Shown piece by piece: positions 1,432-54,580 of a DNA stretch of 64,000 nt. Source of the DNA: a virus; the IMG/VR virus record IMGVR_UViG_3300037010_002844, positions 64,001 to 128,000 of that record; one strand, given 5' to 3'. The notes under the pieces were generated by a model, which saw only the letters and a list, made by a program, of their open reading frames with translations, searched no databases and had not been told where the DNA came from. The translations under genes and the position numbers were made by a program. The stretch's first letter is position 1. The number at the start of each line of letters is the position of its first letter.

Positions 1432-2226
1432 TCAACGGGTCGTGTTTAGCGACAAAAAGATGGTACCCCGGACAGGGTCAGCATCCAAGACACCACGAAT
1501 TGACGGGCTGGTGTAGTCGGCAAACAAACCCTCATCGGAAGTGTCTGCTAGGATCGCAGCAGGATCCTCGATCGAGGACTCAAATCCAAGCTTTATCATG
1601 ACCTCATCAAGATATATTGACACTTTCATGCACTGCTCGGGCGGAACCATCATACTGCACTTCGTCTTCAACGTCTTTGCATCCGGCATGGGCGAACAGG
1701 TGACCTTCGTCCCCTTGAGGCGTATGGCCTCACGCACAGCATTGACGACCTCAGTCAGCGTCTTCGGAGCCTTCTTGATGAGAGCAGTTGTCTTCGAACC
1801 CGACATCACGGAAACGACGGCCGTTGCCAGTGCCTTCGGATCGAACTTTGCGGGCCTGTGACCTGGGGCATAGTTCATGGCGTTGAAGTAACTGTCCGCC
1901 ATGTCAAGAACTGCATCGTGAACGTAGAACTCGACCATATCGAGCCACGTATCATGGCGTTCTGCAGGATCACGGATGCCAGACATCTCGGCCTCGATAT
2001 TGGTCCACGCCTCGTAAATCGCGCCGAAGATGGGCCCACCTTCGTAATCCTCATCGAGGGCCTCGTCGACGAGATCATCCGGCGCACCGGCCTGTTCGAG
2101 CGCCATGGCAAATGCCTTGCGAAACTCGGAAAATGACTTCGGAGGCGCTGCAGCGGCCTCCATGAGGTTGGCTACGACGGCGAGTACCTCTTCACGGATC
2201 ATTTGAACAAGCTCTGACTTCTTCAT
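1432..2226 (-). CDS. Hypothetical protein carrying the shared N-terminal leader motif.
   Basis: 264-aa ORF. N-terminus is MKKSELVQMIREEV (I-x-E leader, see findings). The AT-rich palindrome GGTAATAATTACC lies 20-32 nt upstream of the start. Confidence 0.6.
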   Translation of the reverse strand: MKKSELVQMIREEVLAVVANLMEAAAAPPKSFSEFRKAFAMALEQAGAPDDLVDEALDEDYEGGPIFGAIYEAWTNIEAEMSGIRDPAERHDTWLDMVEFYVHDAVLDMADSYFNAMNYAPGHRPAKFDPKALATAVVSVMSGSKTTALIKKAPKTLTEVVNAVREAIRLKGTKVTCSPMPDAKTLKTKCSMMVPPEQCMKVSIYLDEVMIKLGFESSIEDPAAILADTSDEGLFADYTSPSIRGVLDADPVRGTIFLSLNTTR

Positions 2227-6344: not shown

Positions 6345-9300
6345 ATGAAGGTCACCCTGGGCACATTGCGCGAGTCAATCCTAGAAAGCTACGTTGAGAT
6401 TCTCGTCGAAGGCCGCATAGAAGACGCCCGTGAACGGTACCCTGACATTTCCGACGAGGACTTCGATGACCTAGTCGAGAATCAGCCGCAAGGGTCCAAC
6501 AACAAGTACCTGATGTGGTGTGCCAAGCAGGTCGACGATGGCTTTTCAGTCAACGTCGTCGTCCAGAACATGCGATTGTTCGACGGCAACAAGCAGCGAC
6601 TCGAGAAGAAGGACATCAACCAGTATGAAGATCCCAGCGCCATCGAGACCGCTGTCCAGGCCTTGGGTGGCAAGTCGAAGAGCCAGGAGTCCAAGCAGGC
6701 CAAGGCTGATTCTGACGTGATCTACAATGATGATCACTGGTTGGTCATCCGTCCTCACACCATGGGAGCCTCCTGCAAGTACGGCATCGGAACCAAGTGG
6801 TGCATTGCAGCGACCACGAGCCACAACTACTTCTCGACGTATTCAACCAGCAACAACAAGTTCTACTTCGTCATTGACAAGACGCAGTTGCAGACCACAC
6901 CCCCGCCTCCGAGTTCCAAGTACGCCATCGTCATTCGTGACGAGGCGGGCCGCAATAATGAGGCCTACGATGCCTCTGACAAACGAGTCCCGGTATCGAC
7001 AGTTGCTAAACACGTGGGCGTCGAGTGGCCGGCAATCTGGTCAAAGATTGAGGCTCACGTCAAGAAGGTCCCACTGACCCGTGAGGTTGAGGACGAACAA
7101 CGCGCGGTTGAGGAGCATGTCAATGACCTGATGGCGGGCAAAGACGTGTCTTCGCAGGCGCTACAAAAAATCGCCAAGAGTGCCAAGATGACGTTGCGGG
7201 TGGTGCAGAAGGTCTATGATCTCGCGGCGAAGAAGGTCGAGACCGGAGAAGACAAGTACATGCTTTCATTCTTGATGTATGCGCTCAGCGACAACATCGG
7301 CAACTTGACGCCCGATGCGGCGATGTTCTTCATTCAGAAGATCGGCGATGGCGGCAACAGCTACTACATCAAGCGGGCCATCGAACATGCCAACCTGACA
7401 GAAGAGAACTTCACGCAGTTGGTGAAGAGCGGCAACGAGGCCGTCATCGCGGCCATCATGGAGAATCCACGCGCTCCTGACGCATTGAAGGACGAGATCG
7501 TTAAGGTCATTCCGAACTTCAAGAATGACATGGCAAAACACGATGCATGGTGGGCCTTGATCAAAAGCGGGCGCTACACGCTTGAGCAGTTCAAGGAAGC
7601 CGTGGAAAGCAGCTCTGCTTCACATTACCACGTCGTCGCAGGTCAGGTGTTGAGACACATTGACGAACTGAACTTGACGCCCGAGCAGCTCATGTTGATC
7701 CCCGTCACTGACGAATACGACCTGAAGAACATCATGAAGGCACCCAACCTGCCACCGGCTCACCTAGGTGCCTTGATCGTTAAGCTCCGTGACAAGTTGT
7801 CGACGCAGTTCTTGATCAAGTTGTTGAAGCAGTCGAACATCGACTCTGACACTGTCGAGTTGTTGTGGAAGTCGGTCACGCCCGACATCAGGACGGCGCT
7901 ATTGCAGAACCCGTCGATCGGAGCGTCAAATGCCAGCAAGTTCGCCCTCAGCAAGAATCACGCCTACCGCTTTGCGGTGGCCCACAATCCGGTCACGCCC
8001 AAGGAGGACCTAGCTGTCCTCGCAGGTGATGAGTCGACTTCTACGCGGGCCGCGGTGGCTGCTAACCCCAACACGCCCGTTAATGTTCTGAAACAGCTAT
8101 CCCGCGATGAGGCCGTCGCCATCCGCGCGGCTGCCGCGTCAAATGCCGCTGTCGGCAACGATGTCCTGCAGGCCTTGACCAAAGACAGCGACAACTTCGT
8201 CAGGAGGGTCGCTCGCAAGACTCTGAAGTCCCTAAAGGTCGCTGAGGCCTATGTCAAGGCTGCGATGGGCATGCGTAGGATCTTGTTGGAAGAGCTCAGC
8301 GACGAAAACGAGAACCAGGACATCATGAATCCCTCCTGGCGCGACATCTCGACAAAGTCTCTCAAGTCTGACGAGTTCATTGTCATCTTCTTGCTGCAGA
8401 ACAACGGCCACGCCACCCGCGAAGAAATCGAGTCAGCATGGTTTGACTGGATGGGTCGCCTGGTTCGACGCCACGATTTGTGGAAGAGCACTCAACACGG
8501 CAAGGAACCCGTGCGAGGCATCAATGCCAGCGGCTCAGCTTGGTACTGGGCACCGCCGGGTATCGACAAGGGCGCGCTGTTCCAGCTGACGCCCGCGGGC
8601 GCGGCTGCTGCCATGCATGCCCTGAACAAGGTTCGTGGCAGCGTTGAGCCAAGGCGCTCTGAGGTCGGCTCGGCCGGCGCACGCCCGGGCAGGACGTACT
8701 ACATCAGCAATGATGTCTCGGCTTTTGACATCACCGGCCGCGAAAATGACGAGATCGAAAGTGAAGAGATCGAGGTCAATCGTTACTCTTCCGAGCCCGT
8801 CATCCGCGGTGGCAAGTACACGAAGTTGTCACCGAATCGCAGCCGTGCGTCCAGGATGCGCACCAAGGGCGCGGTCTACTGGAAGTTCACGAGCCCGAAT
8901 GGCCGTGAGACGTACACCAAGAACCTACCTCAGGTTGCCTTGAAGCGCGGTGCCGAGGTCACATACGTCAAGGCTGTCCATGCTCCGGGTAGCGGTGGTC
9001 ACCCGTACAACATGGCGATGGTCAAGTATGGCGACAGGTACCTGTTGACCGCATTCCCGTTGATGACGACGGCCTCGGGCGCCCGTGAGGAAAATGCACC
9101 AGAAAACGTGGCGCCGCCGATTAAGAAGTCGCCGCCGTCGAAGGCAACAGCTGCCGCGCCCGCCGCAGCTGCAGCGATTGAGCCCACGGCAGCCAAGGGT
9201 CCGAAGACGACCTACAAAATCTACGGCCGATTCAAAGGTCACCCGGCCGCGACGCGATTGAAAGGTCAAGCCTACGTGGCCGGACAAGACACGCAGTTCT

Positions 9301-9404
9301 CGGCCGGTGAGCAGGCAGTCATTTCCAAGACGGACGACGGCAAGCTCAAGGTCAAGAAGGCTGACTCGGATCACAGCCAGATCTGGGAGCCGATTGACGG
9401 CTAA
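6345..9404 (+). CDS. Large (1019 aa) LRV/HEAT-like repeat protein with the N-terminal leader motif; candidate packaged virion protein.
   Basis: N-terminus is MKVTLGTLRESILESY. The central region has repeats of the leucine-rich-repeat-variant type (AVAHNPVTPKEDLAVLAGDESTSTRAAVAANPNTPVNVLKQLSRDEAVAIRAAAASN). There is an Ala/Pro-rich linker near the C-terminus. It is one of the few plus-strand genes. Confidence 0.7.
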   Translation: MKVTLGTLRESILESYVEILVEGRIEDARERYPDISDEDFDDLVENQPQGSNNKYLMWCAKQVDDGFSVNVVVQNMRLFDGNKQRLEKKDINQYEDPSAIETAVQALGGKSKSQESKQAKADSDVIYNDDHWLVIRPHTMGASCKYGIGTKWCIAATTSHNYFSTYSTSNNKFYFVIDKTQLQTTPPPPSSKYAIVIRDEAGRNNEAYDASDKRVPVSTVAKHVGVEWPAIWSKIEAHVKKVPLTREVEDEQRAVEEHVNDLMAGKDVSSQALQKIAKSAKMTLRVVQKVYDLAAKKVETGEDKYMLSFLMYALSDNIGNLTPDAAMFFIQKIGDGGNSYYIKRAIEHANLTEENFTQLVKSGNEAVIAAIMENPRAPDALKDEIVKVIPNFKNDMAKHDAWWALIKSGRYTLEQFKEAVESSSASHYHVVAGQVLRHIDELNLTPEQLMLIPVTDEYDLKNIMKAPNLPPAHLGALIVKLRDKLSTQFLIKLLKQSNIDSDTVELLWKSVTPDIRTALLQNPSIGASNASKFALSKNHAYRFAVAHNPVTPKEDLAVLAGDESTSTRAAVAANPNTPVNVLKQLSRDEAVAIRAAAASNAAVGNDVLQALTKDSDNFVRRVARKTLKSLKVAEAYVKAAMGMRRILLEELSDENENQDIMNPSWRDISTKSLKSDEFIVIFLLQNNGHATREEIESAWFDWMGRLVRRHDLWKSTQHGKEPVRGINASGSAWYWAPPGIDKGALFQLTPAGAAAAMHALNKVRGSVEPRRSEVGSAGARPGRTYYISNDVSAFDITGRENDEIESEEIEVNRYSSEPVIRGGKYTKLSPNRSRASRMRTKGAVYWKFTSPNGRETYTKNLPQVALKRGAEVTYVKAVHAPGSGGHPYNMAMVKYGDRYLLTAFPLMTTASGAREENAPENVAPPIKKSPPSKATAAAPAAAAAIEPTAAKGPKTTYKIYGRFKGHPAATRLKGQAYVAGQDTQFSAGEQAVISKTDDGKLKVKKADSDHSQIWEPIDG

Positions 9405-14772: not shown

Positions 14773-14856
14773 ATGTTGCGGAGTCGTGGGCCTGTTGCGT
14801 CTCTGTAAGGCGACATGGCCACGGTCGCGGCGAAACCTGCGACCAAAACGCCCGCC

Positions 14857-15333: not shown

Positions 15334-15351
15334 GTCTTTGTAAAGGTACTT

Positions 15352-19570: not shown

Positions 19571-19872
19571 CGCTAATGTCATCGTCAAACTTTGAGGACG
19601 CATTTTCTTTGAGCCAGAAGATGGCGTCAATTGTGCGCTCGTCGGCGTCGGCGTCATCGCACGACGTAGCCCCATAGTATGGGGGCCAAATCGTGCTCAA
19701 ACCCTTTAACGCGCAGTTTGACCTGACAATCTTGAAATTCAGGATTTTCTGCAGCTCTCGTCTGAGCTATTCTTTCCAGGCCAGACACTATCACATCATC
19801 TGCTCGGCAGAATCGCCGTTGTCTGTAAGCTGCACCGCATCAACGTTGCTCGGACACGGTCCCAACTCCAGC

Positions 19873-20610: not shown

Positions 20611-21532
20611 AGTCCCTGTGCTCTAGATTGGCAATCGTATGGTACAAACCTTGTCGACGAAGTTCACCATAGAAGTCATTCATGTACACGACGTCGATGC
20701 GCTGACCAGACGCCACAACGACTTCCCGTGAACGTGCGTTTGAGTTAAGCAACTTTGAGAAACGCGATTTGCCTTCTCGCACACCTTTCAACTCCACGTA
20801 TCGGTCCTCATCACTGAACCAAAAGTCTGGAGTGTAACACTTCTCTTTGCCATCGATGACAACATGGAAAGACCTATGTTCATAGAATGGCATCTTACCG
20901 AGGTGCAAGCAATATCTGTAGTAGTCGGCTTCGAACGAGCTCTTGAAGTACGGGCTGTTTAGGATGTCGGAACGAAAACACGAGCGTCCGTTCACATGTG
21001 AAGCAACCATATCACGTGACTGTGCCTCGCGGGTGCACCGTTTGGAACAGAACCGCGGCACGTAGCTCTTCTTGGTGACGATCGGTTCGCTACAAACTTC
21101 GCATACCAACGTGTGGCGGTCAAACCTCGATGCAGCGAAACATTTGGGTGAACAGAACCTGCGATTGACGTTCTTCGTTGAGAAAGTGCCTAGACACTGT
21201 ACACATGTCAGTGTACGGAGCTCATTCTTTGTCAGCGCTTTCGCAGTGTACTTGTGCCTGCACGCATTCGAACATAGTTTTCTGTTGTTGTGACACTTTG
21301 GAACGTAGAACTCATCGCCGTACTCGACGCACGTCTTCACAAGCCTCGAGGGCATGGGAGCGTGTGACATCAGCTTCCTGTGAGCGACGGCACACTCATC
21401 AGTGCAGTACGGGCGATGGAGCCTACTACCAGAACCCTTGCAGTTGGGCTCATAGTTGAACTGAAACATAATACCACAGTGTTTACACTGTTTCTCAATG
21501 ATGCTCATAGTGGTACGTGTACAGCTCGTCAC
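20567..21532 (-). mobile_element. Free-standing homing-endonuclease gene in the intein-2 gap (four CxxC...FCSxxC zinc modules plus a T7 endonuclease I-like PD-(D/E)XK domain).
   Basis: The repeats are CKHCG...RPYCTDEC, CVEYG...RKLCSNAC, CVQCL...RRFCSPKC and CEVCS...PRFCSKRC. The C-terminal KCYTPDFWFSDEDRYVELKGVREGKSRFSKL matches the T7 endo I YTPDF...FVETKG core as recalled. Confidence 0.7.
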
Positions 21533-21992
21533 TCGTCGACAGCTCAGATGTATACTTCTTCACAGGTTGTCCATCAGGACCCACTGTCAACCACACATGA
21601 TTTTCAGAACACGTGAACGTAGTACCATTCACCTTCACGCGGTACGTCTTCTCATGTTTTGTGGTCATGGTGAACGTAACTTTACGGTGTGAGCCATCCT
21701 GTGAGACAACGCTGTCACCGACTTTCACGTCTCGAAGCGCGGACGACGAACCATCTGACATCAATACCTTTGTGTCTGGCGACAGACACCTGTGAACGCT
21801 AAGGAATCGCGCGAAAGGCAGGTCCCAGAACAACGGGTCCAAGTCGGTGATGTATAGGACGTAGGCGACCAGAGAGCCACCGCCCGAATTGTGGACTGCA
21901 ATACCTTCCACGTTGTAAGTGTGGCTGTTTTCCACACACAGGTCTACGACCTCACCCTTATACGGTACGACAGTCTTACTTCTGAGCTTCAT
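21495..21992 (-). CDS. dnaE: DnaE fragment 2: C-intein 1, 33-aa extein, N-intein 2.
   Basis: C-intein 1 at 21888-21992 is [35 protein letters not shown]. The extein at 21789-21887 is [33 protein letters not shown], matching the DnaE GSAAGSLVAY..ITDIDP..FERFLNPER region. N-intein 2 at 21498-21788 is [13 protein letters not shown]...CSENHVW. Confidence 0.85.
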
Positions 21993-22076
21993 GATATGCG
22001 TTCGCTCTCTTCATGTAAGCCTTGAGATCCCTGTCTAATAGACATTTGACGAGGATCAGGTAAACTTAGTTGAGTT

Positions 22077-25585: not shown

Positions 25586-25621
25586 GCCCTCAATGTAACA
25601 CAGGAAGCGATATTTAGTTCA

Positions 25622-26038
25622 ATGAAGAAGCAACAGTTCGATGAGACAGCGCGCCGCATGTTCAAAATCCTAGTTGAACGCTTCGGCGAGCCCATCGGTG
25701 ATGCGCCCGCAGTCCCAGGCGTCCCAGACGAGAGAAACGAGGCGCTCGAGGCCGGCGGTTTCCCGACCTGTCCTGAGTGTGGAGGTCAGTACGCAATTGA
25801 GACCGACGTGCCGGGCGAGTTGCTGTGCCACGATTGCGGCGCAACTTATACGCCTGATGTGAACGAGGCCAAGAAGCGCAATGGCCCATCAAAGAAGGCC
25901 GCAAAGTCTTGGATCAATGGAACCAAGAAGTTCAAGGACAAGGTCACCAAGGCGAAGAAGGCTGGCGCCAAAAATCCTGAGGGACTCGCGGCCTGGATGC
26001 AACACAAGGCAACCGGCAAATGGCCTTCGGCCAAGTGA
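25622..26038 (+). CDS. Zinc-ribbon protein with a Lys-rich tail.
   Basis: I chose the internal ATG at 25622 (MKKQQFDETARRMF) because the track start overlaps the divergent gene. Contains CPECGGQYAIETDVPGELLCHDCG. Confidence 0.5.
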   Translation: MKKQQFDETARRMFKILVERFGEPIGDAPAVPGVPDERNEALEAGGFPTCPECGGQYAIETDVPGELLCHDCGATYTPDVNEAKKRNGPSKKAAKSWINGTKKFKDKVTKAKKAGAKNPEGLAAWMQHKATGKWPSAK

Positions 26039-26879: not shown

Positions 26880-28031
26880 TCACCTCAACTCAGCGTTGAA
26901 CGAAATCATTCCTGCCTTAGTAGGATTTGTCGACCAGTTGATCCTGACGGGCTCGCCGTTCATCGCTTGAAGCATGTTCCAGTTCTTGACGTAGAGGTCG
27001 AGGGCACGTTCCGCCAACCGCGAGACGTTGCCGTTGCCAGGCACTCGGGCCAAGCATGGGATCTTGATATCACCCGAGAGTCCTTCCGTAACGCGAAACT
27101 TGCGTAGCGACTTGGGCATCACTGACTCGCGGACATTGAACAGCTTGTTGGCCTGCTTGACGTACTCTGCGGCCGAGACGTCTGAGTGCAGCAGCGTTTC
27201 CAACGGGTCAACCGCTTCTGAGAAGAGCTGCGGCAGCTCAGGCTCGAGGCCTTCACGAAGTGACTGGGCGATCTCCTTCAACGCATAGCGTTCCAGAGTC
27301 CGATCGTCCTTCTCCTTAAGCTGCTTCATGATCTCTTTGTAGAGCTTCTTCTCGTCGATTTCCACGCCTGACGTGGCTTTCGACGAAGCACAGAACCTGT
27401 GAACGACAGGCTCTTCCCATTGTCCTTCGATATTGCCGCCATAGTCCTGAATGAACTTGTGTGCCGTTGTCTCGTACCAGGCGTCGCTCAGGCCCTCGTC
27501 AGTGGCCGCGCCGTCCTGTTTGACGGTGTCGCCCAACGGTTCTTCGCCGTACATGTCAAACGGTTCGTCTTTCTTGTCGGGAGTGGCCAGGCCGGCCTCT
27601 GTCAACTTCTTGTCGTGGAAGATGACACGAAGTGCATCGTCATTGGGCGTGCGCTTCAGCATCTCCTTGACCAGGCTCGCAGGCAACCGGCGAGCGACTG
27701 CGTGACGAACAGCGGCGCTCTTGTCACCGCGCATCCGAGCAACGTACCGCTCCGGCAGCGTCCTGGCCGCAAGCACGCGGGCCTCGACTGACGCGCTATC
27801 AGCGAACTTCAACATCACAGCAGGTTTGAAGTTGATCTGTGACTCACGGCCAGTTCGCTCCAGCACGCTGATCCGATCGTTGGCGCCCTCGGCCAGCTGG
27901 TCCAACTTGACGTTCGTCAGAACGGATGGACCTAGCACCCGGGACACTTCCTGACGGAGGGCATCGACAGCCTTTTCTTCGGCCAAGGTCCGATCGACGA
28001 CCCTCTGTAGCTCTTGCAGCCTCAATCGCAT
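26880..28031 (-). CDS. Hypothetical protein with the leader motif and HEAT/LRV-like segments.
   Basis: N-terminus is MRLRLQELQRVVDRTLAEE. An internal segment reads ARVLAARTLPERYVARMRGDKSAAVRHAVARRLPASL. 383 aa. Confidence 0.6.
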   Translation of the reverse strand: MRLRLQELQRVVDRTLAEEKAVDALRQEVSRVLGPSVLTNVKLDQLAEGANDRISVLERTGRESQINFKPAVMLKFADSASVEARVLAARTLPERYVARMRGDKSAAVRHAVARRLPASLVKEMLKRTPNDDALRVIFHDKKLTEAGLATPDKKDEPFDMYGEEPLGDTVKQDGAATDEGLSDAWYETTAHKFIQDYGGNIEGQWEEPVVHRFCASSKATSGVEIDEKKLYKEIMKQLKEKDDRTLERYALKEIAQSLREGLEPELPQLFSEAVDPLETLLHSDVSAAEYVKQANKLFNVRESVMPKSLRKFRVTEGLSGDIKIPCLARVPGNGNVSRLAERALDLYVKNWNMLQAMNGEPVRINWSTNPTKAGMISFNAELR

Positions 28032-28067
28032 GAAGTGACTCCTACGCTCTAAGTATTGTACACAATC

Positions 28068-28319
28068 TCAACGCGAGCGTTTGCGGCCATCGAGCCCCAT
28101 GGCCACCATCCACTTTTTGATGGCGTCCTTGATATCATCAGGCACGTATACGCTGCGCTCGGCGTAAACAGGATCGTCGACCAGCAACTGGTCGTACGTC
28201 TCCTCAGGCTGCGAGCCTCCCCAACAGTCACGTGCTTCGCACAACCGCTTAAACTCCTCGCGGATCGACCGCCGGAGTTGTCCGACAGTGATCCGCGAGA
28301 TTCGCTTGTCGTTACTCAC
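28068..28319 (-). CDS. Hypothetical small protein with the leader motif.
   Basis: MSNDKRISRITVGQLRRSIREEFKRL. 83 aa. Confidence 0.5.
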   Translation of the reverse strand: MSNDKRISRITVGQLRRSIREEFKRLCEARDCWGGSQPEETYDQLLVDDPVYAERSVYVPDDIKDAIKKWMVAMGLDGRKRSR

Positions 28320-28332
28320 GAAGAGTAACTAT

Positions 28333-39810: not shown

Positions 39811-40080
39811 ATGTCGAAATCCACCCTCGCGCTACTTCGTGAGTTCATCAGCGAAATCATGCTGAGCGAGGCGCCTGTCAACCTGCAGGTCCCCAAGGAC
39901 AAGAAGCAGGCCGACGCATTCATCGACATGTTGCTATGGGCAGGCGAGAAGATGCAGGCCACTCAGGAAGAGGTCGACACTGCCGTCGAAAAGGCCAAAG
40001 ACAAAAACGACTGGTCTGACGCGCTTGACTTGATCTCAACCTACTTTGTGATGAAGGGCATCAAGTTCAAGCGTCAGTGA
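39811..40080 (+). CDS. Hypothetical small protein with the leader motif.
   Basis: MSKSTLALLREFISEIML. 89 aa, plus strand. Confidence 0.5.
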   Translation: MSKSTLALLREFISEIMLSEAPVNLQVPKDKKQADAFIDMLLWAGEKMQATQEEVDTAVEKAKDKNDWSDALDLISTYFVMKGIKFKRQ

Positions 40081-42266: not shown

Positions 42267-43031
42267 TCAGACGTACAGTGCGCGGAGATTGCCGTCAGGC
42301 ATCACCAGCTCGAACGCCTCGAGGCTGGCCTGAAATTGTCCGGTCATCTGGGCGAGCTTCAGCATCGCTTCCGCGATGTGCCGCACTTCGACCTGAGCGT
42401 GCTTCGAGTAGCGCAGCCTCAGGAAGTGGACGAAGCTTCGAAAGTTGAACATCACGTCAGCCGTGATCTGATTGCCGTAAGGTAGATAGAACCTCGCGGT
42501 CTCCTTGGCGCGCTTGCGTGGCACTCCCTTGGTCACGAGTCGCTCCAACGTTTCATGGTAGCGTTCCATCGCCTGTTCCATGTGATCGATGTAACGAGCA
42601 CGTTCTTCATCGTCCCAATCGAATGGCACGTAGTACTTGTCGTCCTTCAGCTCCTTATATCGAGCCGATTCTGCATTGACAGAAACGCCGATGCGGTGCT
42701 TGATCAGGTGGATGTGCGTGGCAATGTCAGTCGTCACCAGGAAGTGCAGAGACGACTTCTCGAAAGGCGTCTCGTGACCAGCAGAAGCGAGGTCCTTCAA
42801 CAACTTCGGAAGTCGGGCACGCTTCTCGTCGGTCAGATCCCGCGAGGTACTGGTCCAGGCTGACATGGCATGGCTCTGATCGCCACCGTAGATGCCGACC
42901 AGCTCGACGGTGTTGGGACCAGCGCCTTTGCCCTTGATCTTGATGGGCTCCGGAGGAGGCGAAGAAATAGTCGGCACCTCAACTTGGGGCTGAGAACCTT
43001 TGCTGGTTTTTGCGGATTTCTTCTGCTTCAT
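42267..43031 (-). CDS. thyX: FAD-dependent thymidylate synthase ThyX.
   Basis: ThyX signature IKHRIGVSVNAESARY (RHR..S......S.RY). Confidence 0.9.
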   Translation of the reverse strand: MKQKKSAKTSKGSQPQVEVPTISSPPPEPIKIKGKGAGPNTVELVGIYGGDQSHAMSAWTSTSRDLTDEKRARLPKLLKDLASAGHETPFEKSSLHFLVTTDIATHIHLIKHRIGVSVNAESARYKELKDDKYYVPFDWDDEERARYIDHMEQAMERYHETLERLVTKGVPRKRAKETARFYLPYGNQITADVMFNFRSFVHFLRLRYSKHAQVEVRHIAEAMLKLAQMTGQFQASLEAFELVMPDGNLRALYV

Positions 43032-43349: not shown

Positions 43350-43613
43350 TCACGTCTGCTGGATGAATTGCCAGAGGGCGTCTTCAGCCACAGCGTACAT
43401 CTTCTCGTCGAGCTCAGCCAGTGTCTTGTTGGCGATCTGCATCAACTCACGGGCCTGTGACGGATTCTCAGCGCGAAGCTGGATGAACCGCTTGACGTGC
43501 TGGCGGATCCGATCAGTGCAGTCGTCCGTCGCCTGACGCACCATGAACTCTGGGACGCCGCGCATGAACTCCTCGCAGATGATCTGCCTCAGATCTCCCA
43601 GACGAACCTTCAT
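43350..43613 (-). CDS. Hypothetical small protein with the leader motif.
   Basis: MKVRLGDLRQIICEEF. 87 aa. Confidence 0.55.
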   Translation of the reverse strand: MKVRLGDLRQIICEEFMRGVPEFMVRQATDDCTDRIRQHVKRFIQLRAENPSQARELMQIANKTLAELDEKMYAVAEDALWQFIQQT

Positions 43614-43972
43614 CAGGACTCCGACTTGCCCTTCAGAGCACGAGCCCAGGCGCCCTTGACCGCGCTACCGACCTGCGACATCATGGTCTCAGTCGCGCCC
43701 TCGGCGGCCTGCTTCAACTGCTCGTAGGTCGCATCGTCAAATTCACGTGAGCCCTCGTCGTACTTGTCGGCGTGTGCCAACAGCAGTGCATGCATCACAG
43801 AATTACTGAAGTGGCGCTCGAGGTTGCCCAAGGCCTGCGAAATGTTCTGCGACTCGAGAGGATCCTTGACGGCAGTGTTGCCGGCACGAAAGAGCGCCGG
43901 CGACAGTCCGACTTCGGAGATGACACTTTCGCGGATCAGGCGACGTAGGGTTCCCAACTTGATCTTCATCAC
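43613..43972 (-). CDS. Hypothetical small protein with the leader motif.
   Basis: MMKIKLGTLRRLIRESV. 119 aa, overlapping its neighbours. Confidence 0.55.
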   Translation of the reverse strand: MMKIKLGTLRRLIRESVISEVGLSPALFRAGNTAVKDPLESQNISQALGNLERHFSNSVMHALLLAHADKYDEGSREFDDATYEQLKQAAEGATETMMSQVGSAVKGAWARALKGKSES

Positions 43973-44391
43973 AGTTCCTCTGAATCGTTGTGGTCAATGA
44001 CAGAAGCCACGGCCTCGTAGATGCCGTCTGACAGGTCGTTCAACCGCGAGCTGATCTCAACGGTAATATTTGCGCGGAGATCTTCGAGATCATCAACGTA
44101 CTCCAGCGATTCCTTGAGGGTCCGAGGAGTGATGCGGTTCAACCCATCAGACTTCCGGTAGGTCTCCTCCGCGATGATTGCGTAGGCCTTCTTTTGGAAA
44201 TTCTCGACCGCCGAGGTCGCCTCTTCGAAGACAAGCTGCGAAAGACGTTCCTGGATGACCAACTGCGTGTCGGTGTCAAATCCACTGACCATTTCCTTGA
44301 ACGAGGGCTCACGGCGCTTTTCCAGCGCCGTTTGCACTTCTTCCTGAATGATCTCGTTGATTCGGACGGCCTGCCGAGGCGTGATTCTCAT
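43969..44391 (-). CDS. Hypothetical small protein with a weaker version of the leader motif.
   Basis: MRITPRQAVRINEIIQEEV. 140 aa. Confidence 0.55.
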   Translation of the reverse strand: MRITPRQAVRINEIIQEEVQTALEKRREPSFKEMVSGFDTDTQLVIQERLSQLVFEEATSAVENFQKKAYAIIAEETYRKSDGLNRITPRTLKESLEYVDDLEDLRANITVEISSRLNDLSDGIYEAVASVIDHNDSEEL

Positions 44392-44404
44392 GCAGGTAAG
44401 TATC

Positions 44405-47400
44405 TCACCCGCATTTGCTGTTTCCGCAGTTCATGCAAGTAACGCATCCCTGCTGATAGGCGAGCGACGTCGAGGCACAGATCGGGCAACACTTTTCCTG
44501 CGTTGCCTTGGTCCCATCCACGATGTAGTGCTTGCTCAACGTTCGCGCGATAACCGTCGAGAACGAGAACAGATCGCTGTGCTTGTCCTTGCGGAGCTGC
44601 TCGACGACAAGGTGAACTGGTACTCCATGTCGAAGTGTCATCGACAAGGTTCGAGTGTGCGCTCCGTACAACGGATTGTCGAAGAGGTTGACAATGTCCT
44701 TATAGAGAAGGAAATTGTCGTCCAGGTCGACGCGGAGGTTGTACGTGGACACCCCGTCAGCGTTCTTGCCGTTCTTGATGAGGACGCCCTTCTTGGCCTT
44801 CCTCGGGACTTCAACCTGTTCTGACAGTCCGGCGAACAGCTCGTAAGGCTTGCCGTTCATGAGGCCCACGAAGACCAGGTACTTCTCACCCTTGATCGAA
44901 ACGTGGTGAATGTCACACTCCAGCTCCTTCGGACGCTTCAGAGAGTGAGACTCGGCGATATTCTTGGGTTGGTCCGCCGCTGTCTTCTTCTCGTCCTTGA
45001 TGAGGACGCCATCACGAGAACCATCTCGATAGATGGTGACGCCCTTGCAACCAGTCTCCCAACCGCGCATGTAGATCTGCTTCACCACATCGACCGGCGT
45101 GTCACTCGGAATGTTGGTGGTGTTCGAGATGGAGTGACAGACCCACTTCTGAGCTGCGGCCTGGACGTCGATCTTCTTGACCCAGTCGATGTCATTCGAC
45201 GTGGCACCGAAGTAAGGCGACTTTTCCACGTCGGTCTCACCAGTGACGTCCATCCACTTCTTGAATCCGTGGTGATAGACCGTGTACTCCTGCCACTTGT
45301 CGCCCATGGCGTCAACGAAGTCGACACGAGCATCCAAGTCATTCGGATTGATCTTCTTCCTTCGCTTGTAGCTCAGGAGGAAGGCGGGCTCGCAGCCAGA
45401 TGTAGTCTGGGTCAAGATGGAGACAGAGCCAGCTGGCGCTGTCGTCGTCAAGGCGATGTTGCGACGTCCATAGAGACGATACTGATCACGGAGCTCATGA
45501 TCAGCGTCCATCACTTGTTCAATGAAAGGATGTCCCTCTTCCACCTTGTGGGAAAAAATCGGGAAGGGACCACGATCACGTGCCATCTCAACAGTCGAGC
45601 GGTAGGCACCCAACGCGAGGCCCTTATAGATCTGCTCAGTGACGTTGATAGACTCGTCCGAACCGTACTTGATGTTGAGGTAGGCCAAGGCATCGCCCAA
45701 GGCAGTGATGCCCAAGCCGGTGCGACGACCATTGATTGCAGTGTTGCGGATCTTGGTCCATAGCTCGATTTCGGGCCGCTTCACGTCAGCGGGCTCAGGG
45801 TCATTCTCGATCTTCTGCATGATTCGATCAATGGCCTCGAGCTCCAGGTCGACGAGATCGTCCATCAACTTCTGCGCCTTCTTAACAACATCGTTGAAGC
45901 GCACGAAGTCAAAACTGGCGTGAGGAGTAAATGGATCTCTGACGAAGCGAGCGAGGTTGACGAGAAGCAAACGACATGAATCGTAAGGCGACAGCGTAAT
46001 CTCACCGCATTGTTCGCTAGCGATTATTACGTTTGCTTGATTTTGGAACTGTACAAGCTTTTCGTCACCAACATACATGCACAGTGTGTGCTCTCCGTCG
46101 ACAGTGCCGTTGTACACGTCTTCGACACCCGCGGGTTCAACGCTGATCACGCGGTGATTGTGCAATGCCGCGGCCTCTTTCAGGGCAGACCAGGACGCAA
46201 AACCGTTTTTGGTACCGATTCGTGCCGGCACATCCAAGCGTCGACATTCGGCAACCCACTCTCTTCCCAAGGGCTCTCTACCCAACGTAAACCTAAGTGA
46301 GGTAAAGGCGTCAAGTTGCTGTTTTCGCGTTACTTCTGCACGATCAGCGTGAAGCTTCTTCAGGTTCTCTGCCCGTGCAACGTTCTTATTGGCCTTCCTG
46401 TTTGCGTAGAGGTTGGAACACGAATGTGAGCAGAATGCCTGTTCACGTCGGCAGTACGGCAGCGCGAACATTTCGTTGCACCACTCACACGTCCGGTTGA
46501 CGTACAGCTCACCGTCGATCACATCGACATCATAACCTTCTTCAAGGGCCTGAACGTACGTACGTTGAATCCTCGTGTCGAGTTCTGGTGTTGAGATGTC
46601 GACCTCTCGAGCCGCCCAGCACGACAGGTCGTAGAAGCTTCCCAGCTCGCTGCGACGCCAGGCCGAAAACGACATCGGCAGCGACCGTTGTTTAGCGTAA
46701 GCGTACCACTCGTTCAGTGAAACGCGGCGGCCGAGCGACCGGGTCAACCCCAGCACGTGTTGGCGGATGTCATCATTGGTGACGTTGTCATAGGCACGCG
46801 GATTGTTGGCCCCACCGACGCTCTCGCTCATCTTCGCCGAATATTCAGCAAACTTGCCAGCGACTTTATGAGCAACCCAAAGTTGATCGCCATTCAACAG
46901 CTCGTCGACTCGCTTCCGGGATCCGTCACGCATGATCATCGTGTGGTTTCCGGTGGCCTTAAAAGTGTGACCTCCCTCAATGGTCACCTTGAACACAGGA
47001 ACTCCCTTACCGGTAAGCCTAGGATTCCTCATCAGGCGGATGCCAATTTTTCCTGTGGCCTCCTGGTAACAATAGACCGGCAAGTCCTTGCCTTCGTCAG
47101 CTAGCTGCTTGATGGGCACGTAACCCCTTCCGTCAGCGACGGCGATAAGAGTTTCTCCCGTAATGCACGGGTTGGTGCTCGTCGAGCCGTAACCAAACGC
47201 AGCGTAGGCATCTGCTGGCCCGCGGCGCAGGACAGTGTCCCAGAACAGCAAACCGGGTTCAGCAGATTCCCATGCTGCCTGGATGATCTCATGCCACAGT
47301 TGGCGAGCGTCTACCTGTTCCTCGACGATGTGAGGAACGTCTTTGTCAACTGGAAACCGCAGTTGAACCTGCGTACCCGCCTTAACGGCGTTCATGAACT

Positions 47401-48046
47401 CGTCTGTCAAACGAATCGATATGTTGGCGCCCGTGACCTTCTTCTTGTTCTTCTTGATGTTGATGAAGGTGCGAATCTCCGGGTGGTGCACCGACACTGT
47501 CAACATCAGCGCGCCTCGGCGGCCGCCTTGGGCCACCTCGCGACAGGTATTACTGTAGCGCTCCATGAAGATGCCCAGGCCATCGGTGGTGCGGGCAGCG
47601 TTGGCAGTCTCGATACCCTTCGGGCGAATCGTCGAGATGTCAAAACCCACGCCGCCGCGACGCTTCATGATCTGCGCCTGTTCCTGGTCAGTCTTTAGGA
47701 TGCCGCCATAGGAATCATAAGGGCTCTCGATAACGAAGCAGTTGCTCAACGACTGAAACTGGTACGGATTGCCAACTGCCGACATGGGTGATCCCTGTGG
47801 GACCACGTCCCATGAAGAGAAGAGCTCATAGATCTCTTGCTCTGACATGGCGTTCGGATACCGTGTCTCGATGCGAGCAAACTCCCGCGCCTCGCGCCGG
47901 TGCATGTCGTCAGGGGTAGCCTCGTAAATGTTTCCCTTAAGATCCTGCAGCGCATACTTGCCTGCAAAGACCTCACCCGCCAGCTCATCTCCACGAAAAT
48001 ACTCGATCGACGCATCGCGAACGTGCTGATACGTGAAAGTCCTCAT
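44405..48046 (-). CDS. nrdJ: Class II (adenosylcobalamin-dependent) ribonucleotide reductase NrdJ, interrupted by one contiguous intein.
   Basis: N-terminal YFRGDELAGEVFAGKYALQD; GGVGFDISTIRPKG; the active-site TNP[intein]CGEITL; and a C-terminal CCPICAS...CVTCMNCGNSKCG zinc module. Confidence 0.9.
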   Translation of the reverse strand: MRTFTYQHVRDASIEYFRGDELAGEVFAGKYALQDLKGNIYEATPDDMHRREAREFARIETRYPNAMSEQEIYELFSSWDVVPQGSPMSAVGNPYQFQSLSNCFVIESPYDSYGGILKTDQEQAQIMKRRGGVGFDISTIRPKGIETANAARTTDGLGIFMERYSNTCREVAQGGRRGALMLTVSVHHPEIRTFINIKKNKKKVTGANISIRLTDEFMNAVKAGTQVQLRFPVDKDVPHIVEEQVDARQLWHEIIQAAWESAEPGLLFWDTVLRRGPADAYAAFGYGSTSTNPCITGETLIAVADGRGYVPIKQLADEGKDLPVYCYQEATGKIGIRLMRNPRLTGKGVPVFKVTIEGGHTFKATGNHTMIMRDGSRKRVDELLNGDQLWVAHKVAGKFAEYSAKMSESVGGANNPRAYDNVTNDDIRQHVLGLTRSLGRRVSLNEWYAYAKQRSLPMSFSAWRRSELGSFYDLSCWAAREVDISTPELDTRIQRTYVQALEEGYDVDVIDGELYVNRTCEWCNEMFALPYCRREQAFCSHSCSNLYANRKANKNVARAENLKKLHADRAEVTRKQQLDAFTSLRFTLGREPLGREWVAECRRLDVPARIGTKNGFASWSALKEAAALHNHRVISVEPAGVEDVYNGTVDGEHTLCMYVGDEKLVQFQNQANVIIASEQCGEITLSPYDSCRLLLVNLARFVRDPFTPHASFDFVRFNDVVKKAQKLMDDLVDLELEAIDRIMQKIENDPEPADVKRPEIELWTKIRNTAINGRRTGLGITALGDALAYLNIKYGSDESINVTEQIYKGLALGAYRSTVEMARDRGPFPIFSHKVEEGHPFIEQVMDADHELRDQYRLYGRRNIALTTTAPAGSVSILTQTTSGCEPAFLLSYKRRKKINPNDLDARVDFVDAMGDKWQEYTVYHHGFKKWMDVTGETDVEKSPYFGATSNDIDWVKKIDVQAAAQKWVCHSISNTTNIPSDTPVDVVKQIYMRGWETGCKGVTIYRDGSRDGVLIKDEKKTAADQPKNIAESHSLKRPKELECDIHHVSIKGEKYLVFVGLMNGKPYELFAGLSEQVEVPRKAKKGVLIKNGKNADGVSTYNLRVDLDDNFLLYKDIVNLFDNPLYGAHTRTLSMTLRHGVPVHLVVEQLRKDKHSDLFSFSTVIARTLSKHYIVDGTKATQEKCCPICASTSLAYQQGCVTCMNCGNSKCG
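46010..47167 (-). mobile_element. 386-aa intein in the NrdJ TNPCGE active-site motif.
   Basis: Residues 294-679. Starts CITGETLIAVADG, has block B GNHTM, and ends ANVIIASEQ followed by +1 Cys. Internal modules are two homing-endonuclease-associated-repeat-like segments (LGRRVSLNEWYAYAKQRSLPMSFSAWRR; LGREPLGREWVAECRRLDVPARIGTKNGFASWSALKEAA) and one CxxC...FCSxxC zinc module. I saw no LAGLIDADG, HNH or GIY-YIG motif. Confidence 0.8.
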
Positions 48047-54319: not shown

Positions 54320-54580
54320 TCACTTCCGGCGCTTTTTGCCGGCGTTCTTCCTGCGACCCATGGCGTCAGGGTTCGCACCCAGCGGCGCGGTGTACCCAGC
54401 GACGGCTCCAACACCCGAAAACTCATTGACGTCTTCAACCTCATCACGCTTCTTTCCGTCTTCCGATCCCGTGTCCGGTTCAATGAGCTGGTTTGGAACG
54501 CGAGCATCCCTGGCCGACTCGAGGACCATCCTAACATACCGCACGAGCAATGTCTTGCCCATACTAATAAGTATGACCAC
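54320..54580 (-). CDS. Hypothetical small protein with a basic tail.
   Basis: 86-aa ORF, with a possible start at MGKTLLVRYVRMVLESARD. Weak call. Confidence 0.3.
   Translation of the reverse strand: MVILISMGKTLLVRYVRMVLESARDARVPNQLIEPDTGSEDGKKRDEVEDVNEFSGVGAVAGYTAPLGANPDAMGRRKNAGKKRRK

What the first reader, a model, noticed from the sequence alone, without database searches (positions are those of the whole stretch)
43350..44391. At least eight proteins share an N-terminal leader ending in I/L-x-E, a possible capsid-targeting and prohead-protease signal
Three tandem small genes here begin MKVRLGDLRQIICEE, MMKIKLGTLRRLIRES and MRITPRQAVRINEIIQEE. The same pattern opens five other genes:
- the 1019-aa repeat protein (6345: MKVTLGTLRESILES)
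- 1432..2226 (MKKSELVQMIREE)
- 26880..28031 (MRLRLQELQRVVDRTLAEE)
- 28068..28319 (..ITVGQLRRSIREE)
- 39811..40080 (MSKSTLALLREFISEI)

The consensus is K-(I/V)-x-L-x-x-L-R-x-x-I-x-E-(E/S). Every copy ends in I-x-E or L-x-E within the first ~25 residues. In T4, internal head proteins and Alt carry a short N-terminal capsid-targeting sequence that is removed by the prohead protease after (L/I)-x-E. These otherwise unrelated proteins may therefore be a set of packaged and ejected proteins, which are candidate anti-defence or takeover effectors, recognisable by this leader.
Basis: partly seen in the sequence, partly recalled or inferred. Interest (0 to 1): 0.75.

Follow-up and report, generated by a model that had tools for sequence, protein, structure and literature searches.

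The report
Shared capsid-address tag on phage proteins
A huge uncultivated T4-like phage puts the same 15-22-residue N-terminal helix, ending in Ile-x-Glu, on many otherwise unrelated late proteins; it most likely works like the T4 capsid-targeting sequence and may let packaged proteins be predicted from sequence alone.

Summary
The leader is real, but two of the eight claimed members fail.

**Membership.** A profile trained only on other phages ranks five claimed N-termini (genes ending at 28319, 2226, 43613, 43969 and starting at 6345) as the top five of 60,039 window positions. Gene 44391 is borderline. Genes 39811 and 28031 fail.

**Spread.**
- At least eight more copies lie just outside the window, four of them in tandem between the tail sheath and tail tube genes.
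- The strict pattern MKITKxQLxxIIxEE hits at least 120 viral contigs.
- It hits only six suspect MAG contigs in 596 Gbp of cellular genomes.
- No Pfam family or paper text covers it.

**Function.** Conservation is at protein level. The rest of each protein is hypervariable, and the 140-aa gene is an ORFan.

Two new lines tie the leader to head assembly:
- Leader genes in the replication region carry the same ATA[C/G/A]TTA upstream motif as the sheath, tube and gp13 genes, so they are probably late genes.
- In other phages, leader genes sit within 1-3 genes of a T4 gp21-type prohead protease in 12 of 18 loci that hold one.

**Limits.** Cleavage, packaging and ejection are untested. This phage's own protease was not found. 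I read it as a T4 CTS analogue, not a homologue, and a new variant of a known kind.

The parts
43350..43613 (-). 87-aa gene, third of the tandem trio. Its leader is MKVRLGDLRQIICEE, a core member.
   Evidence: Leave-one-out: best non-training hit, 19.8 bits. Independent IMG/VR profile: 12.2 bits, 3rd of 60,039 positions.
43613..43969 (-). 118-aa gene, second of the trio. Its leader is MKIKLGTLRRLIRES, a core member. It overlaps both neighbours at start and stop.
   Evidence: and the gene call. Leave-one-out 24.3 bits. Independent profile 9.9 bits, 5th. A single-sequence AF2 model puts residues 5-19 in a helix followed by a break, at low confidence (mean pLDDT 65).
43969..44391 (-). 140-aa gene, first of the trio. 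Its N-terminus MRITPRQAVRINEIIQEE is a borderline leader. The protein is an ORFan.
   Evidence: Leave-one-out rank 197. Independent profile 6.3 bits, 9th. Its only match among 5.8 billion proteins is itself, and IMG/VR holds no relative.
44397..44403 (-). ATACTTA, a promoter-like motif of the late structural-gene type. It sits 5 nt before the trio's first start codon, with no Shine-Dalgarno sequence between.
   Evidence: The same motif precedes the gp13, 1004-aa and sheath genes, and the variant ATATTTA precedes the tube gene.
6345..9404 (+). 1019-aa protein with the leader MKVTLGTLRESILES. It has LRV/HEAT-like repeats and a phrog_17056-type domain at residues 110-260. ATAATTA lies at 6332-6338, 6 nt before the ATG.
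   Evidence: 10.3 bits, 4th. No PDB relative by sequence.
28068..28319 (-). 83-aa gene. The leader SRITVGQLRRSIREEF starts at residue 8. ATAGTTA lies at 28326-28332.
   Evidence: Best hit of the independent profile in the window, 24.2 bits.
1432..2226 (-). 264-aa acidic protein (net charge -14) with the short leader MKKSELVQMIREE. ATAATTA lies at 2248-2254, followed by a GGGAG ribosome site.
   Evidence: Leave-one-out rank 13. Independent profile 18.8 bits, 2nd. Charge.
39811..40080 (+). 89-aa gene starting MSKSTLALLREFISEI. This is a doubtful member. The upstream sequence is CTACTTA, one mismatch from the motif.
   Evidence: Leave-one-out rank 38. Independent profile only 1.1 bits. Upstream sequence.
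26880..28031 (-). 383-aa gene starting MRLRLQELQRVVDRTLAEE. Sequence does not support it as a leader, but it is preceded by ATACTTA at 28050-28056 plus an AGGAG ribosome site.
   Evidence: Leave-one-out rank 2081. Independent profile -2.2 bits. No homology to the clade's 327-aa leader family. Motif.
54320..54562 (-). 80-aa gene starting MGKTLLVRYVRMVLES, preceded by ATACTTA at 54568-54574. It is a gene of the late-motif class but not a leader member by the independent profile.
   Evidence: Independent profile -3.2 bits. Gene call in L009 at 18588-18830.
25622..26038 (+). 138-aa gene preceded by ATATTTA at 25610-25616. It makes a near-threshold match to the Lar restriction-alleviation zinc ribbon. 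It has no leader by profile.
   Evidence: Pfam PF14354: E 2.9e-6, 27.9 bits against a cut-off of 28.6. Profile score -2.1.

Best explanation
The leader is an N-terminal address tag, a functional analogue of the T4 capsid-targeting sequence. It forms a 15-22-residue amphipathic helix. The consensus across phages is M-K-I-T-K-x-Q-L-K/R-x-I-I-K-E-E-[LI]-x-x-[LV]-L. In this phage it reads [KR]-[IV]-x-[LV]-G-x-L-R-x-x-I-x-E-[ES].

The proposed mechanism is as follows.
1. The proteins are made late, together with virion proteins.
2. The helix docks them onto the scaffolding core of the prohead.
3. A gp21-type serine protease then cuts after the invariant Glu of I-x-E. This frees the variable cargo inside the head.
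4. The cargo is either ejected with the DNA or, for some acidic members, degraded and expelled like T4 gp67 and gp68.

Shown here:
- the leader is conserved at protein level;
- it sits at the N-terminus;
- it is restricted to phages;
- the cargoes are hypervariable;
- leader genes share an upstream motif with structural genes;
- leader genes are physically linked to gp21-type protease genes and T4-type head modules.

Inferred only: docking to the core, cleavage, packaging and ejection.
For: 1. **Real and N-terminal.** Leave-one-out and independent profiles support it. Held-out DNA of the same phage gives only N-terminal hits.
2. **Protein-level selection.** The codons differ between copies.
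3. **Widespread and phage-specific.**
   - 504 proteins at E<=1e-3 among 1.84 billion.
   - At least 120 IMG/VR stretches for the strict pattern.
   - Only 9 stretches on 6 MAG contigs in 596 Gbp of cellular genomes.
4. **Positioned and variable as expected.**
   - The Met lies a median 9 residues after an in-frame stop.
   - Median protein length is 106 aa.
   - 346 cargoes fall into 242 clusters.
   - The 140-aa gene is an ORFan, while the neighbouring neck protein has at least 935 homologues, the 120 listed being 71-100% identical.
5. **The hosts are T4-type phages.** Neighbours are T4-type TerL, gp20 portal, gp23 and Peptidase_S77. 18 of 120 loci hold a protease matching T4 gp21 at E 1e-19 to 1e-27.
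6. **Linkage to the protease.** In 12 of those 18 loci a leader gene lies 1-3 genes away, and in 11 it lies within 94 nt. An example is L043: leader, protease, three leaders, scaffold-like gene, gp23.
7. **Probable late expression.**
   - ATA[C/G/A/T]TTA occurs 18 times in 101 kb.
   - 14 of those sites lie within 48 nt upstream of a called gene start. By my own estimate about 3% would do so by chance.
   - The genes preceded include gp13, the 1004-aa protein, sheath and tube, plus leader genes 2226, 6345, 28319, the trio and L006 10595.
   - The motif is kept upstream of the same structural genes in a relative whose neck protein is 75% identical.
8. **A variable gene slot.** The sheath/tube region holds 1 leader gene (L152), 4 (this phage) or 9 (L092).
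9. **Protease specificity probably conserved.** gp23 homologues of these phages keep L-x-E sites at the propeptide boundary. T4 CTS facts come from PMC9026906, PMC5694885 and PMC3012670.
Against: - No head gene or protease of this phage itself was seen in about 101 kb. The link runs through relatives: a neck protein 69-70% identical in L190 and L193, whose gp23 is 59% identical to that of L055, which carries the protease.
- There is no sequence similarity to T4 head proteins, so this is analogy, not homology.
- Conservation continues 6-8 residues past the proposed cut: E15 in 81% of copies, and hydrophobic residues at positions 16, 19 and 20. A bare cleavage site does not require this.
- Cargoes are mostly acidic, whereas T4 IPI-III are described as basic proteins (PMC9026906).
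- Many leader genes sit next to the tail sheath or among replication genes rather than in a head module.
- In one lineage a conserved leader protein lies directly upstream of TerL, where a small terminase would be expected.
- Cultured relatives checked (Mel-JY01, S-RSM4) lack a strong leader in their head modules.
Confidence: 0.55

Rival explanations
1. These are prohead core or scaffold accessory proteins rather than delivered effectors. The leader is a core-assembly helix, as in T4 gp67, gp68 or gp22. The proteins fill or shape the large scaffold and are degraded and expelled before DNA packaging, so nothing is ejected into the host.
For: - The genes occupy the gp67/gp68 slot between portal and protease, or the slot next to the scaffold gene.
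- Cargoes are mostly acidic, as the T4 gp67 sequence is.
- A conserved 131-148-aa head-module protein after the protease has a leader-like N-terminus, MKKSELKQLIKPVVKECIHEVLLEEG.
- Motif conservation extends past the putative cut site.
Against: - Extreme cargo turnover and ORFan status do not suit essential assembly parts.
- Copy number per slot varies from 1 to 9.
- Large members such as the 1019-aa repeat protein do not look like scaffold filler.
- T4 gp67 and gp68 find no homologues in these loci.
Confidence: 0.2
2. This is a late-gene family whose shared N-terminal helix binds some other common partner, such as a chaperone, the terminase or portal, tail assembly factors, or a host target. 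There would be no capsid incorporation and no proteolysis.
For: - Many copies sit beside the sheath and tube genes or among replication genes.
- A conserved leader protein sits right upstream of TerL in one lineage.
- Nothing here shows cleavage.
- The helix is conserved beyond the Glu.
Against: - The tight, repeated adjacency to the gp21-type protease gene and placement inside portal-to-capsid modules would be unexplained.
- The invariant Glu preceded by I/L at the -2 position matches the protease's known motif.
- No tail, neck or fibre protein carries the leader.
Confidence: 0.12
3. The signal is not a protein-function signal. It could be an N-terminal codon or translation-efficiency signature of highly expressed late genes (MK..), a recently duplicated 5' cassette, or chance similarity between amphipathic helices.
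For: - AAA-rich second codons are common in well-expressed genes (general knowledge).
- Two of the eight claimed members turned out to be no better than chance.
Against: - DNA is not conserved beyond what the peptide demands, in genomes ranging from 30 to 51% GC across the IMG/VR loci and about 54% in the window.
- Fourteen or more positions are conserved, up to residue 22.
- The strict pattern is expected about 5e-4 times in 1.2e12 positions (own calculation) but occurs in at least 120 viral stretches.
Confidence: 0.03
4. It is a RiPP-type or export leader. Tandem small genes with a conserved leader and a variable core would be precursors of modified peptides or secreted proteins.
For: The architecture looks superficially like prochlorosin-type precursor arrays: tandem genes, a conserved leader and variable remainders.
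Against: - Cargoes have a median of about 90 residues and reach 1004 residues (the 1019-aa protein less its 15-residue leader), with 0.4% Cys.
- No modifying enzyme or transporter recurs among neighbours, which are head and tail genes.
- The leader is charged and amphipathic, without a hydrophobic core or a GG/GA cut site.
Confidence: 0.02

Closest known systems
[quoted passage not shown]
   Same: - A short N-terminal peptide is shared by otherwise unrelated, fast-evolving, non-essential proteins. In T4 it is 10-19 residues (PMC9026906).
- It ends in (I/L)-x-E, which gp21 cuts.
- The host phage is T4-like.
- The genes are polymorphic between close relatives.
- Large enzymes can carry the tag as well as small proteins (Alt in T4, the 1019-aa protein here).
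   Different: - No detectable sequence similarity to T4 head proteins.
- The helix is longer, about 15-22 residues, and much more strongly conserved.
- There are far more tagged genes per genome: at least 13 profile-supported genes in 101 kb, against four proteins (IPI-III and Alt) in T4.
- Cargoes are mostly acidic.
- Genes are scattered, each with its own late-type promoter motif or placed in sheath/tube and protease-flanking arrays.
- Cleavage and packaging are not demonstrated.
T4 prohead core proteins gp67 and gp68
   Same: They are small late proteins encoded between the portal and the protease. They are incorporated into the scaffolding core. T4 gp67 is very acidic and carries an internal LIKEE. 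In one lineage the leader genes occupy exactly this slot.
   Different: There is no sequence similarity. gp67 and gp68 are conserved single-copy core genes, whereas leader cargoes are hypervariable and multi-copy.
Propeptides of giant-phage head and ejection proteins (phiKZ gp175 and SPN3US gp245 protease substrates; SPN3US paralogues gp53 and gp54 with identical 15-residue N-termini)
   Same: Many head proteins of huge phages carry N-terminal propeptides cut after Glu. Diverged paralogues keep an identical N-terminus that contains the cleavage motif (PMC5694885).
   Different: Those proteases prefer a small residue at P3 (A/S/G-x-E), and their propeptides are long and varied. Here P3 is Ile or Leu, as in T4, and the leader is one short conserved helix.
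T4-type late promoter TATAAATA
   Same: A short A/T-rich element lies just upstream of structural genes and of genes for head-internal proteins. This comparison rests on my own knowledge of T4, not on a tool result.
   Different: The sequence here is ATA[C/G/A]TTA[C/G]. It often lies only 4-6 nt from the start codon with no ribosome-binding site, which suggests leaderless mRNAs. No gp55 or gp33 homologue was looked for.

Membership tests
T4-type capsid-targeting sequence / gp21-removed N-terminal propeptide | A short peptide at the extreme N-terminus, shared by proteins that are otherwise unrelated | tested here: met
   Profiles place it at N-termini. The Met lies a median 9 residues after an in-frame stop. 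346 cargoes fall into 242 clusters.
T4-type capsid-targeting sequence / gp21-removed N-terminal propeptide | The peptide ends in (L/I)-x-E, the gp21 cleavage motif | tested here: met
   Glu is invariant in 15 aligned copies of this phage. The IMG/VR logo shows I at position 12 in 96% of copies. E14 was fixed by the search pattern.
T4-type capsid-targeting sequence / gp21-removed N-terminal propeptide | The same genome encodes a gp21-type (Peptidase S77) prohead protease | tested here: inconclusive
   Not found in about 101 kb of this phage. Present in 18 of 120 loci carrying the leader. Present in L055, whose gp23 is 59% identical to that of L190, a clade member whose neck protein is 69% identical to this phage's.
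T4-type capsid-targeting sequence / gp21-removed N-terminal propeptide | Sequence homology to T4 CTS peptides or T4 core proteins | tested here: not met
   T4 gp21, 22, 23, 24, 67 and 68 score 8.5 bits or less with the leader profile. T4 gp22, gp67 and gp68 find nothing in leader loci. The T4 IP genes themselves were not fetched.
T4-type capsid-targeting sequence / gp21-removed N-terminal propeptide | Co-expression with head and virion genes (late) | tested here: inconclusive
   The upstream motif is shared with the gp13, sheath and tube genes and conserved in a relative. This is a sequence inference only, with no transcript data.
T4-type capsid-targeting sequence / gp21-removed N-terminal propeptide | The leader is needed and sufficient for incorporation into the prohead core, and is cut off in mature heads | not testable with these tools
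   This needs virion proteomics with N-terminal mapping, or leader-reporter fusions.
T4 gp67/gp68 prohead core proteins | Encoded between portal and protease, with sequence similarity to gp67 or gp68 | tested here: not met
   The position criterion is met in some loci (L027, L029, L031). There is no similarity. In the window the genes lie elsewhere.
phiKZ/SPN3US-type (S80 protease) propeptides | Cleavage motif with a small residue at P3 (A/S/G-x-E) | tested here: not met
   P3 is Ile, Leu or Val in the logo and in the window copies.
RiPP precursor leader peptides | A short Cys/Ser/Thr-rich core, plus a neighbouring modifying enzyme or transporter | tested here: not met
   Cargo median is about 90 residues with 0.4% Cys. 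Neighbours are head and tail genes.
Sec/Tat signal peptides | A hydrophobic h-region followed by a signal-peptidase site | tested here: not met
   The leader is charged and amphipathic, with K, R, Q and E at most positions.

The most novel reading that the evidence does not exclude
A large, uncultivated branch of the T4 superfamily, including phages of 250-315 kb, uses one portable and strongly conserved peptide (MKITKxQLKxIIKEEL-like) as a general ticket into the prohead. On this reading, dozens of hypervariable late proteins per genome form a packaged and ejected proteome that can be read directly from sequence. These range from 43-aa peptides to a 1019-aa repeat protein and include occasional fused two- to four-unit ORFs. 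This would be a much larger arsenal than the T4 IP/Alt set, and a natural tag for loading foreign proteins into capsids.
Probability: 0.4. Interest if true: 0.8.

Novelty: new variant of a known kind. Interest (0 to 1): 0.68.

Why it matters
- **Prediction from sequence.** If the tag works as proposed, a 15-residue motif would predict which proteins of uncultivated T4-like and huge phages are loaded into the capsid and delivered with the DNA. That class includes anti-restriction and host-takeover factors in T4.
- **A candidate list.** The search already yields hundreds of fast-evolving candidates for anti-defence screening: 504 proteins at E<=1e-3, and at least 120 viral stretches.
- **A biological puzzle addressed.** The tag offers an explanation for a very common unannotated N-terminus in aquatic viral metagenomes.
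- **A possible tool.** It suggests a portable tag for packaging cargo into phage heads.
- **A second result.** The linked promoter-like motif gives a first handle on late transcription in this clade.

Tried and rejected
1. **Word-indexed search with a leader alignment.** Only 4 hits, 3 of them from the phage itself. The method is too insensitive for a 15-mer.
2. **tblastn against GenBank phages.** A synthetic triple leader and a real two-leader protein found nothing usable. blastn of an IMG/VR leader locus also found nothing.
3. **DNA-cassette or recent-duplication idea.** Rejected, because there is no nucleotide conservation beyond the codons.
4. **[LI]-x-E enrichment in cargoes as a sign of multi-site degradation.** It is enriched (z = 6.5), but so are [LI]-x-K, [LI]-x-Q and [LI]-x-D, and non-leader proteins show the same. 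This is a helix-periodicity effect and is uninformative.
5. **A second cleavage site upstream of internal leader copies** (hydrophobic-x-E-[GNS]-K). Rejected. This stretch is an in-frame Shine-Dalgarno region. Six of 7 internal units and 75% of first units have a GGAG-type 4-mer, against 12% of random windows. Multi-unit ORFs therefore look like fused tandem genes. They make up only 7 of 360 ORFs in unbiased loci. The profile search over-represents them because their scores add up.
6. **Walking to this phage's head module.** Three extensions reached tail, neck, fibre and patatin genes only.
7. **Orthology rescue of gene 28031.** No homology to the clade's 327-aa leader family. Likewise for 28319 against L190's 114-aa gene.
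8. **Identity of the leader protein upstream of TerL.** No PDB or PHROG match.
9. **Cultured relatives.** The Mel-JY01 and S-RSM4 head modules lack a strong leader.
10. **AF2 without an alignment.** Low confidence (pLDDT 65). It supports only an N-terminal helix. No fold search was run.
11. **Literature.** Searches for the peptide strings and for CTS-like leaders in T4-like phages found no description.
Full report
**What the window is.** The 64 kb are about 54% GC and are mostly read on the minus strand. They encode:
- replication and nucleotide-metabolism genes: a ribonucleotide reductase with an intein, a DnaB helicase, a gp32-like SSB, a UvsX/RecA recombinase, ThyX, thymidylate kinase, RNA ligase and a polynucleotide kinase-phosphatase;
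- two unassigned proteins of about 1000 aa.

Exact-protein look-ups place these genes on metagenomic contigs of up to 309,481 bp. DNA just right of the window encodes a T4-type neck and tail: gp13, gp15, a 1015-aa sheath, the gp19 tube and a T4 baseplate protein. The source is therefore a huge, distant T4-like myovirus. It has no close cultured relative. The best GenBank phage hit to its neck protein is 26% identical.

- *Leave-one-out profiles, Met-Lys columns excluded.* The held-out N-termini of 43613, 43972, 6345 and 28319 come first among non-training hits of 61,423 positions. Gene 2226 ranks 13th, 39811 ranks 38th, 44391 ranks 197th and 28031 ranks 2081st.
- *A profile trained only on 352 leaders from unrelated viral contigs.* Its top five of 60,039 window positions are the N-termini of 28319, 2226, 43613, 6345 and 43972. 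Gene 44391 is 9th. Genes 39811 and 28031 do not score.

So five members are solid, one is borderline and two are not supported. The nucleotide sequences of the 5' ends differ freely at synonymous sites, so selection acts on the peptide.

**More copies in the same phage.** In 10 kb beyond the left end of the window (L006), the three best new hits are all N-termini of called genes: MDRKIRIKVGDLKRILREEF, MKTLTEADVLRIMREEW and MSKVTVTEEAIREMVREV. Beyond the right end, four tandem small genes directly follow the sheath gene and precede the tube gene. Their N-termini are VKITSQKLRKIIKEE, MKITQKQLRQIIRET, MRLISPNRLRELIREA (this gene also has a second internal copy) and MKATIGQIRRIIREK. None of the neck, tail, fibre or sheath proteins in 29 kb of structural genes carries the leader.

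**How widespread is it?**
- A profile of the leader searched with full HMMER against 1.84 billion proteins gave 504 hits at E<=1e-3. The consensus is MKITK(S/R)QL(K/R)xIIKEEL. Of the 149 best hits examined, 143 have a copy at residue 1.
- No Pfam family covers it. A few PHROGs of unknown function touch it.
- No paper in the library contains the peptide strings.
- A degenerate DNA pattern for MKITKxQLxxIIxEE hit at least 120 stretches of IMG/VR. Many stretches hold 2-6 tandem copies on one strand.
- The same pattern hit only 9 stretches on 6 contigs in 596 Gbp of bacterial and archaeal genomes. All six contigs are MAG contigs, some with many copies, and they look like mis-binned phage. By my own calculation, chance gives about 5e-4 hits in that collection.

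**Properties in the 120 IMG/VR loci.**
- There are 367 units in 360 ORFs.
- The Met lies a median 9 residues after an in-frame stop.
- Proteins have a median length of 106 aa.
- Conservation runs to about residue 22: E15 in 81% of copies, and hydrophobic residues at positions 16, 19 and 20.
- The 346 cargoes fall into 242 BLAST clusters, 196 of them singletons.
- Cargoes are mostly acidic, with a median net charge of -6.

Multi-unit ORFs dominate the profile-search list only because their scores add up. They are 7 of 360 ORFs in the unbiased loci. Their internal units keep a ribosome-binding site, so they look like fused tandem genes.

**Hypervariability in this clade.** The 140-aa trio gene has no homologue other than itself among 5.8 billion proteins. 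The neck protein has at least 935 homologues at E<=1e-20, and the 120 best are 71-100% identical. The gene slot around the sheath and tube holds one leader gene in a 313-kb relative (L152), four here and nine in L092. It recurs with 1-4 different leader genes across the 80 clade loci fetched.

**Link to the head, line 1: gene neighbourhood.** Large ORFs next to leader genes in IMG/VR are T4-type TerL (27 of 117 sampled), gp20 portal (9), gp23, Peptidase_S77, sheath and gp32. Eighteen of the 120 loci contain a protease that matches T4 gp21 at E 1e-19 to 1e-27. By tblastn this protease matches the gp21 proteins of T4-like coliphages, cyanophages and vibriophages. In 12 of these 18 loci a leader gene lies within 1-3 genes of the protease, and in 11 it lies within 94 nt.

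Typical gene orders are:
- portal, 277 aa, 179 aa, leader(s), protease;
- leader, protease, three leaders, 133 aa, S21-like, 168 aa, scaffold-like gene, gp23 (L043);
- protease ... scaffold-like gene, gp23, leader, 105 aa, two leaders (L055, from a 273-kb contig).

This is the place where T4 encodes gp67, gp68 and gp22. The gp23 homologues keep L-x-E sites at the propeptide boundary, for example LLKE|A and VLRE|A. The T4-like cleavage preference is therefore probably retained.

This phage's own head module was not reached. Its clade is tied to L055 only indirectly: L190 and L193 have a neck protein 69-70% identical to this phage's, and the gp23 of L190 is 59% identical to that of L055.

**Link to the head, line 2: a shared upstream motif.** ATA[C/G/A/T]TTA occurs 18 times in 101 kb of this phage.
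- Fourteen sites lie within 48 nt upstream of a called gene start on the same strand. By my own estimate about 3% would do so by chance.
- In the structural region the motif precedes gp13, the 1004-aa protein, the sheath, the tube, a patatin-like gene and a 242-aa gene.
- The same genes keep it in a relative whose neck protein is 75% identical.
- In the replication region of the window it precedes leader genes 2226, 6345, 28319 and the trio (44391). It also precedes the doubtful 28031 and two small non-leader genes (54320-54562 and the Lar-like 25622-26038). Just outside the window it precedes L006 10595.
- Narrower forms of the motif are enriched over shuffles.
- Where the spacer is only 4-6 nt there is no Shine-Dalgarno sequence. 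Where it is 18-24 nt there is one.

I read the motif as this clade's late promoter. On that reading the leader genes are late genes embedded among early ones.

**Interpretation.** In T4, IPI-III and Alt carry 6-19-residue N-terminal propeptides. These bind the scaffolding core and are removed by gp21 after (I/L)-x-E. The cargoes are non-conserved and include an anti-restriction protein and an ADP-ribosyltransferase (PMC9026906, PMC5694885, PMC3012670). The leader here has the same logic:
- it sits at the extreme N-terminus;
- it ends in I-x-E;
- it is attached to unrelated, rapidly replaced cargoes;
- it occurs in a T4-type phage;
- the genes appear to be expressed late;
- the genes cluster with a gp21-type protease.

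It shows no sequence similarity to T4 head proteins. It is longer, far more conserved, and tags many more genes. I therefore treat it as a functional analogue and a new variant, not a family member.

The main alternative within the same framework is that many of these acidic proteins are disposable core components rather than ejected effectors.

The open problems are:
- conservation beyond the cut site;
- the arrays next to tail genes;
- a conserved leader protein sitting where a small terminase would be expected;
- the missing protease of this phage;
- the complete lack of direct evidence for cleavage or packaging.

A single-sequence AF2 model of the 118-aa protein shows only a helix at residues 5-19 followed by a break, at low confidence.

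**Verdict.**
- The novelty is a new variant of a known kind.
- Confidence in the capsid-targeting and cleavage mechanism is about 0.55.

Noticed in passing
window 44397-44403(-), 28050-28056(-), 28326-28332(-), 2248-2254(-), 6332-6338(+), 54568-54574(-), 25610-25616(+); L140 6302, 8049, 8791, 11997, 15148; L009 1218: A promoter-like motif, ATA[C/G/A/T]TTA[C/G], precedes structural genes and leader genes. It is often only 4-6 nt from the start codon with no ribosome-binding site, which suggests leaderless late mRNAs. It is conserved upstream of the same genes in relative L152.
   Followed up: partly
window 13815-23762 (-): A DnaE-type DNA polymerase III alpha (PHP, NTPase and finger domains) is broken into several ORFs. 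The pieces are separated by Hint/intein modules and intervening genes. The ribonucleotide reductase at 44405-48046 also holds an intein.
   Followed up: partly
window 25622-26038 (+): A 138-aa gene behind the late-type motif makes a near-threshold match to the Lar restriction-alleviation zinc ribbon (E 2.9e-6; 27.9 bits against a cut-off of 28.6). A 45-residue N-terminal extension does not score as a leader.
   Followed up: partly
IMG/VR loci, e.g. L049 3080-3733, L106 3916-4602, L088 10222-11025: A conserved, very acidic, probably disordered leader protein of 150-260 aa (MKITQQQLYKIILEEY...) lies directly upstream of the large terminase gene. It has a second leader-like segment (GFQLEELxxLIREVL) further in. 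It has no PDB or PHROG match. It is either a head-assembly protein or the small terminase.
   Followed up: partly
proteins P0005-P0152; IMG/VR loci L018, L024, L041, L054, L079, L082, L126: Some ORFs hold 2-4 leader units. Most internal units keep their Met and an in-frame GGAG-type ribosome site. They are probably fused tandem genes with possible internal starts.
   Followed up: yes
Genome-contig loci L144, L148, L149 (NHDW01000006.1, 305,838 bp) and L145, L147 (PBIO01000025.1, 101,404 bp): Contigs filed under a Methylococcaceae MAG and a Halobacteriovorax MAG carry 7 strict leader matches each. They are probably mis-binned phage genomes.
   Followed up: no
IMG/VR leader loci: Eight of 117 sampled large neighbour ORFs are tubulin/FtsZ-family GTPases. 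Other neighbours include Peptidase_M50 and DUF2201 metallopeptidase-like proteins.
   Followed up: no
L136 13155-13382 (Mel-JY01) and IMG/VR loci, e.g. L043 4374-4604, L049 11214-11459: A small gene sits inside the head module between the protease and the capsid gene. In Mel-JY01 it is annotated as ribosomal protein S21; the IMG/VR counterparts were judged S21-like only by eye from length, position and N-terminal sequence.
   Followed up: no
L140 6330-7199: A patatin-like phospholipase gene lies within the fibre and neck module and is preceded by the late-type motif.
   Followed up: no
window 42267-43031 (-) and L006 5535-6194, 7206-7751: The phage encodes both ThyX and a ThyA-type thymidylate synthase. 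It also has a 181-aa protein with a weak proteasome-family hit, a CCA-adding or poly(A) polymerase-like enzyme and an Fe/Mn superoxide dismutase.
   Followed up: no
L152 18579-20249 (-), L190 18235-19890 (-): In relatives, a gene of about 550 aa on the opposite strand, with a Cys-rich N-terminus, is inserted between the sheath-adjacent leader gene and the tube gene. It is absent from this phage.
   Followed up: no
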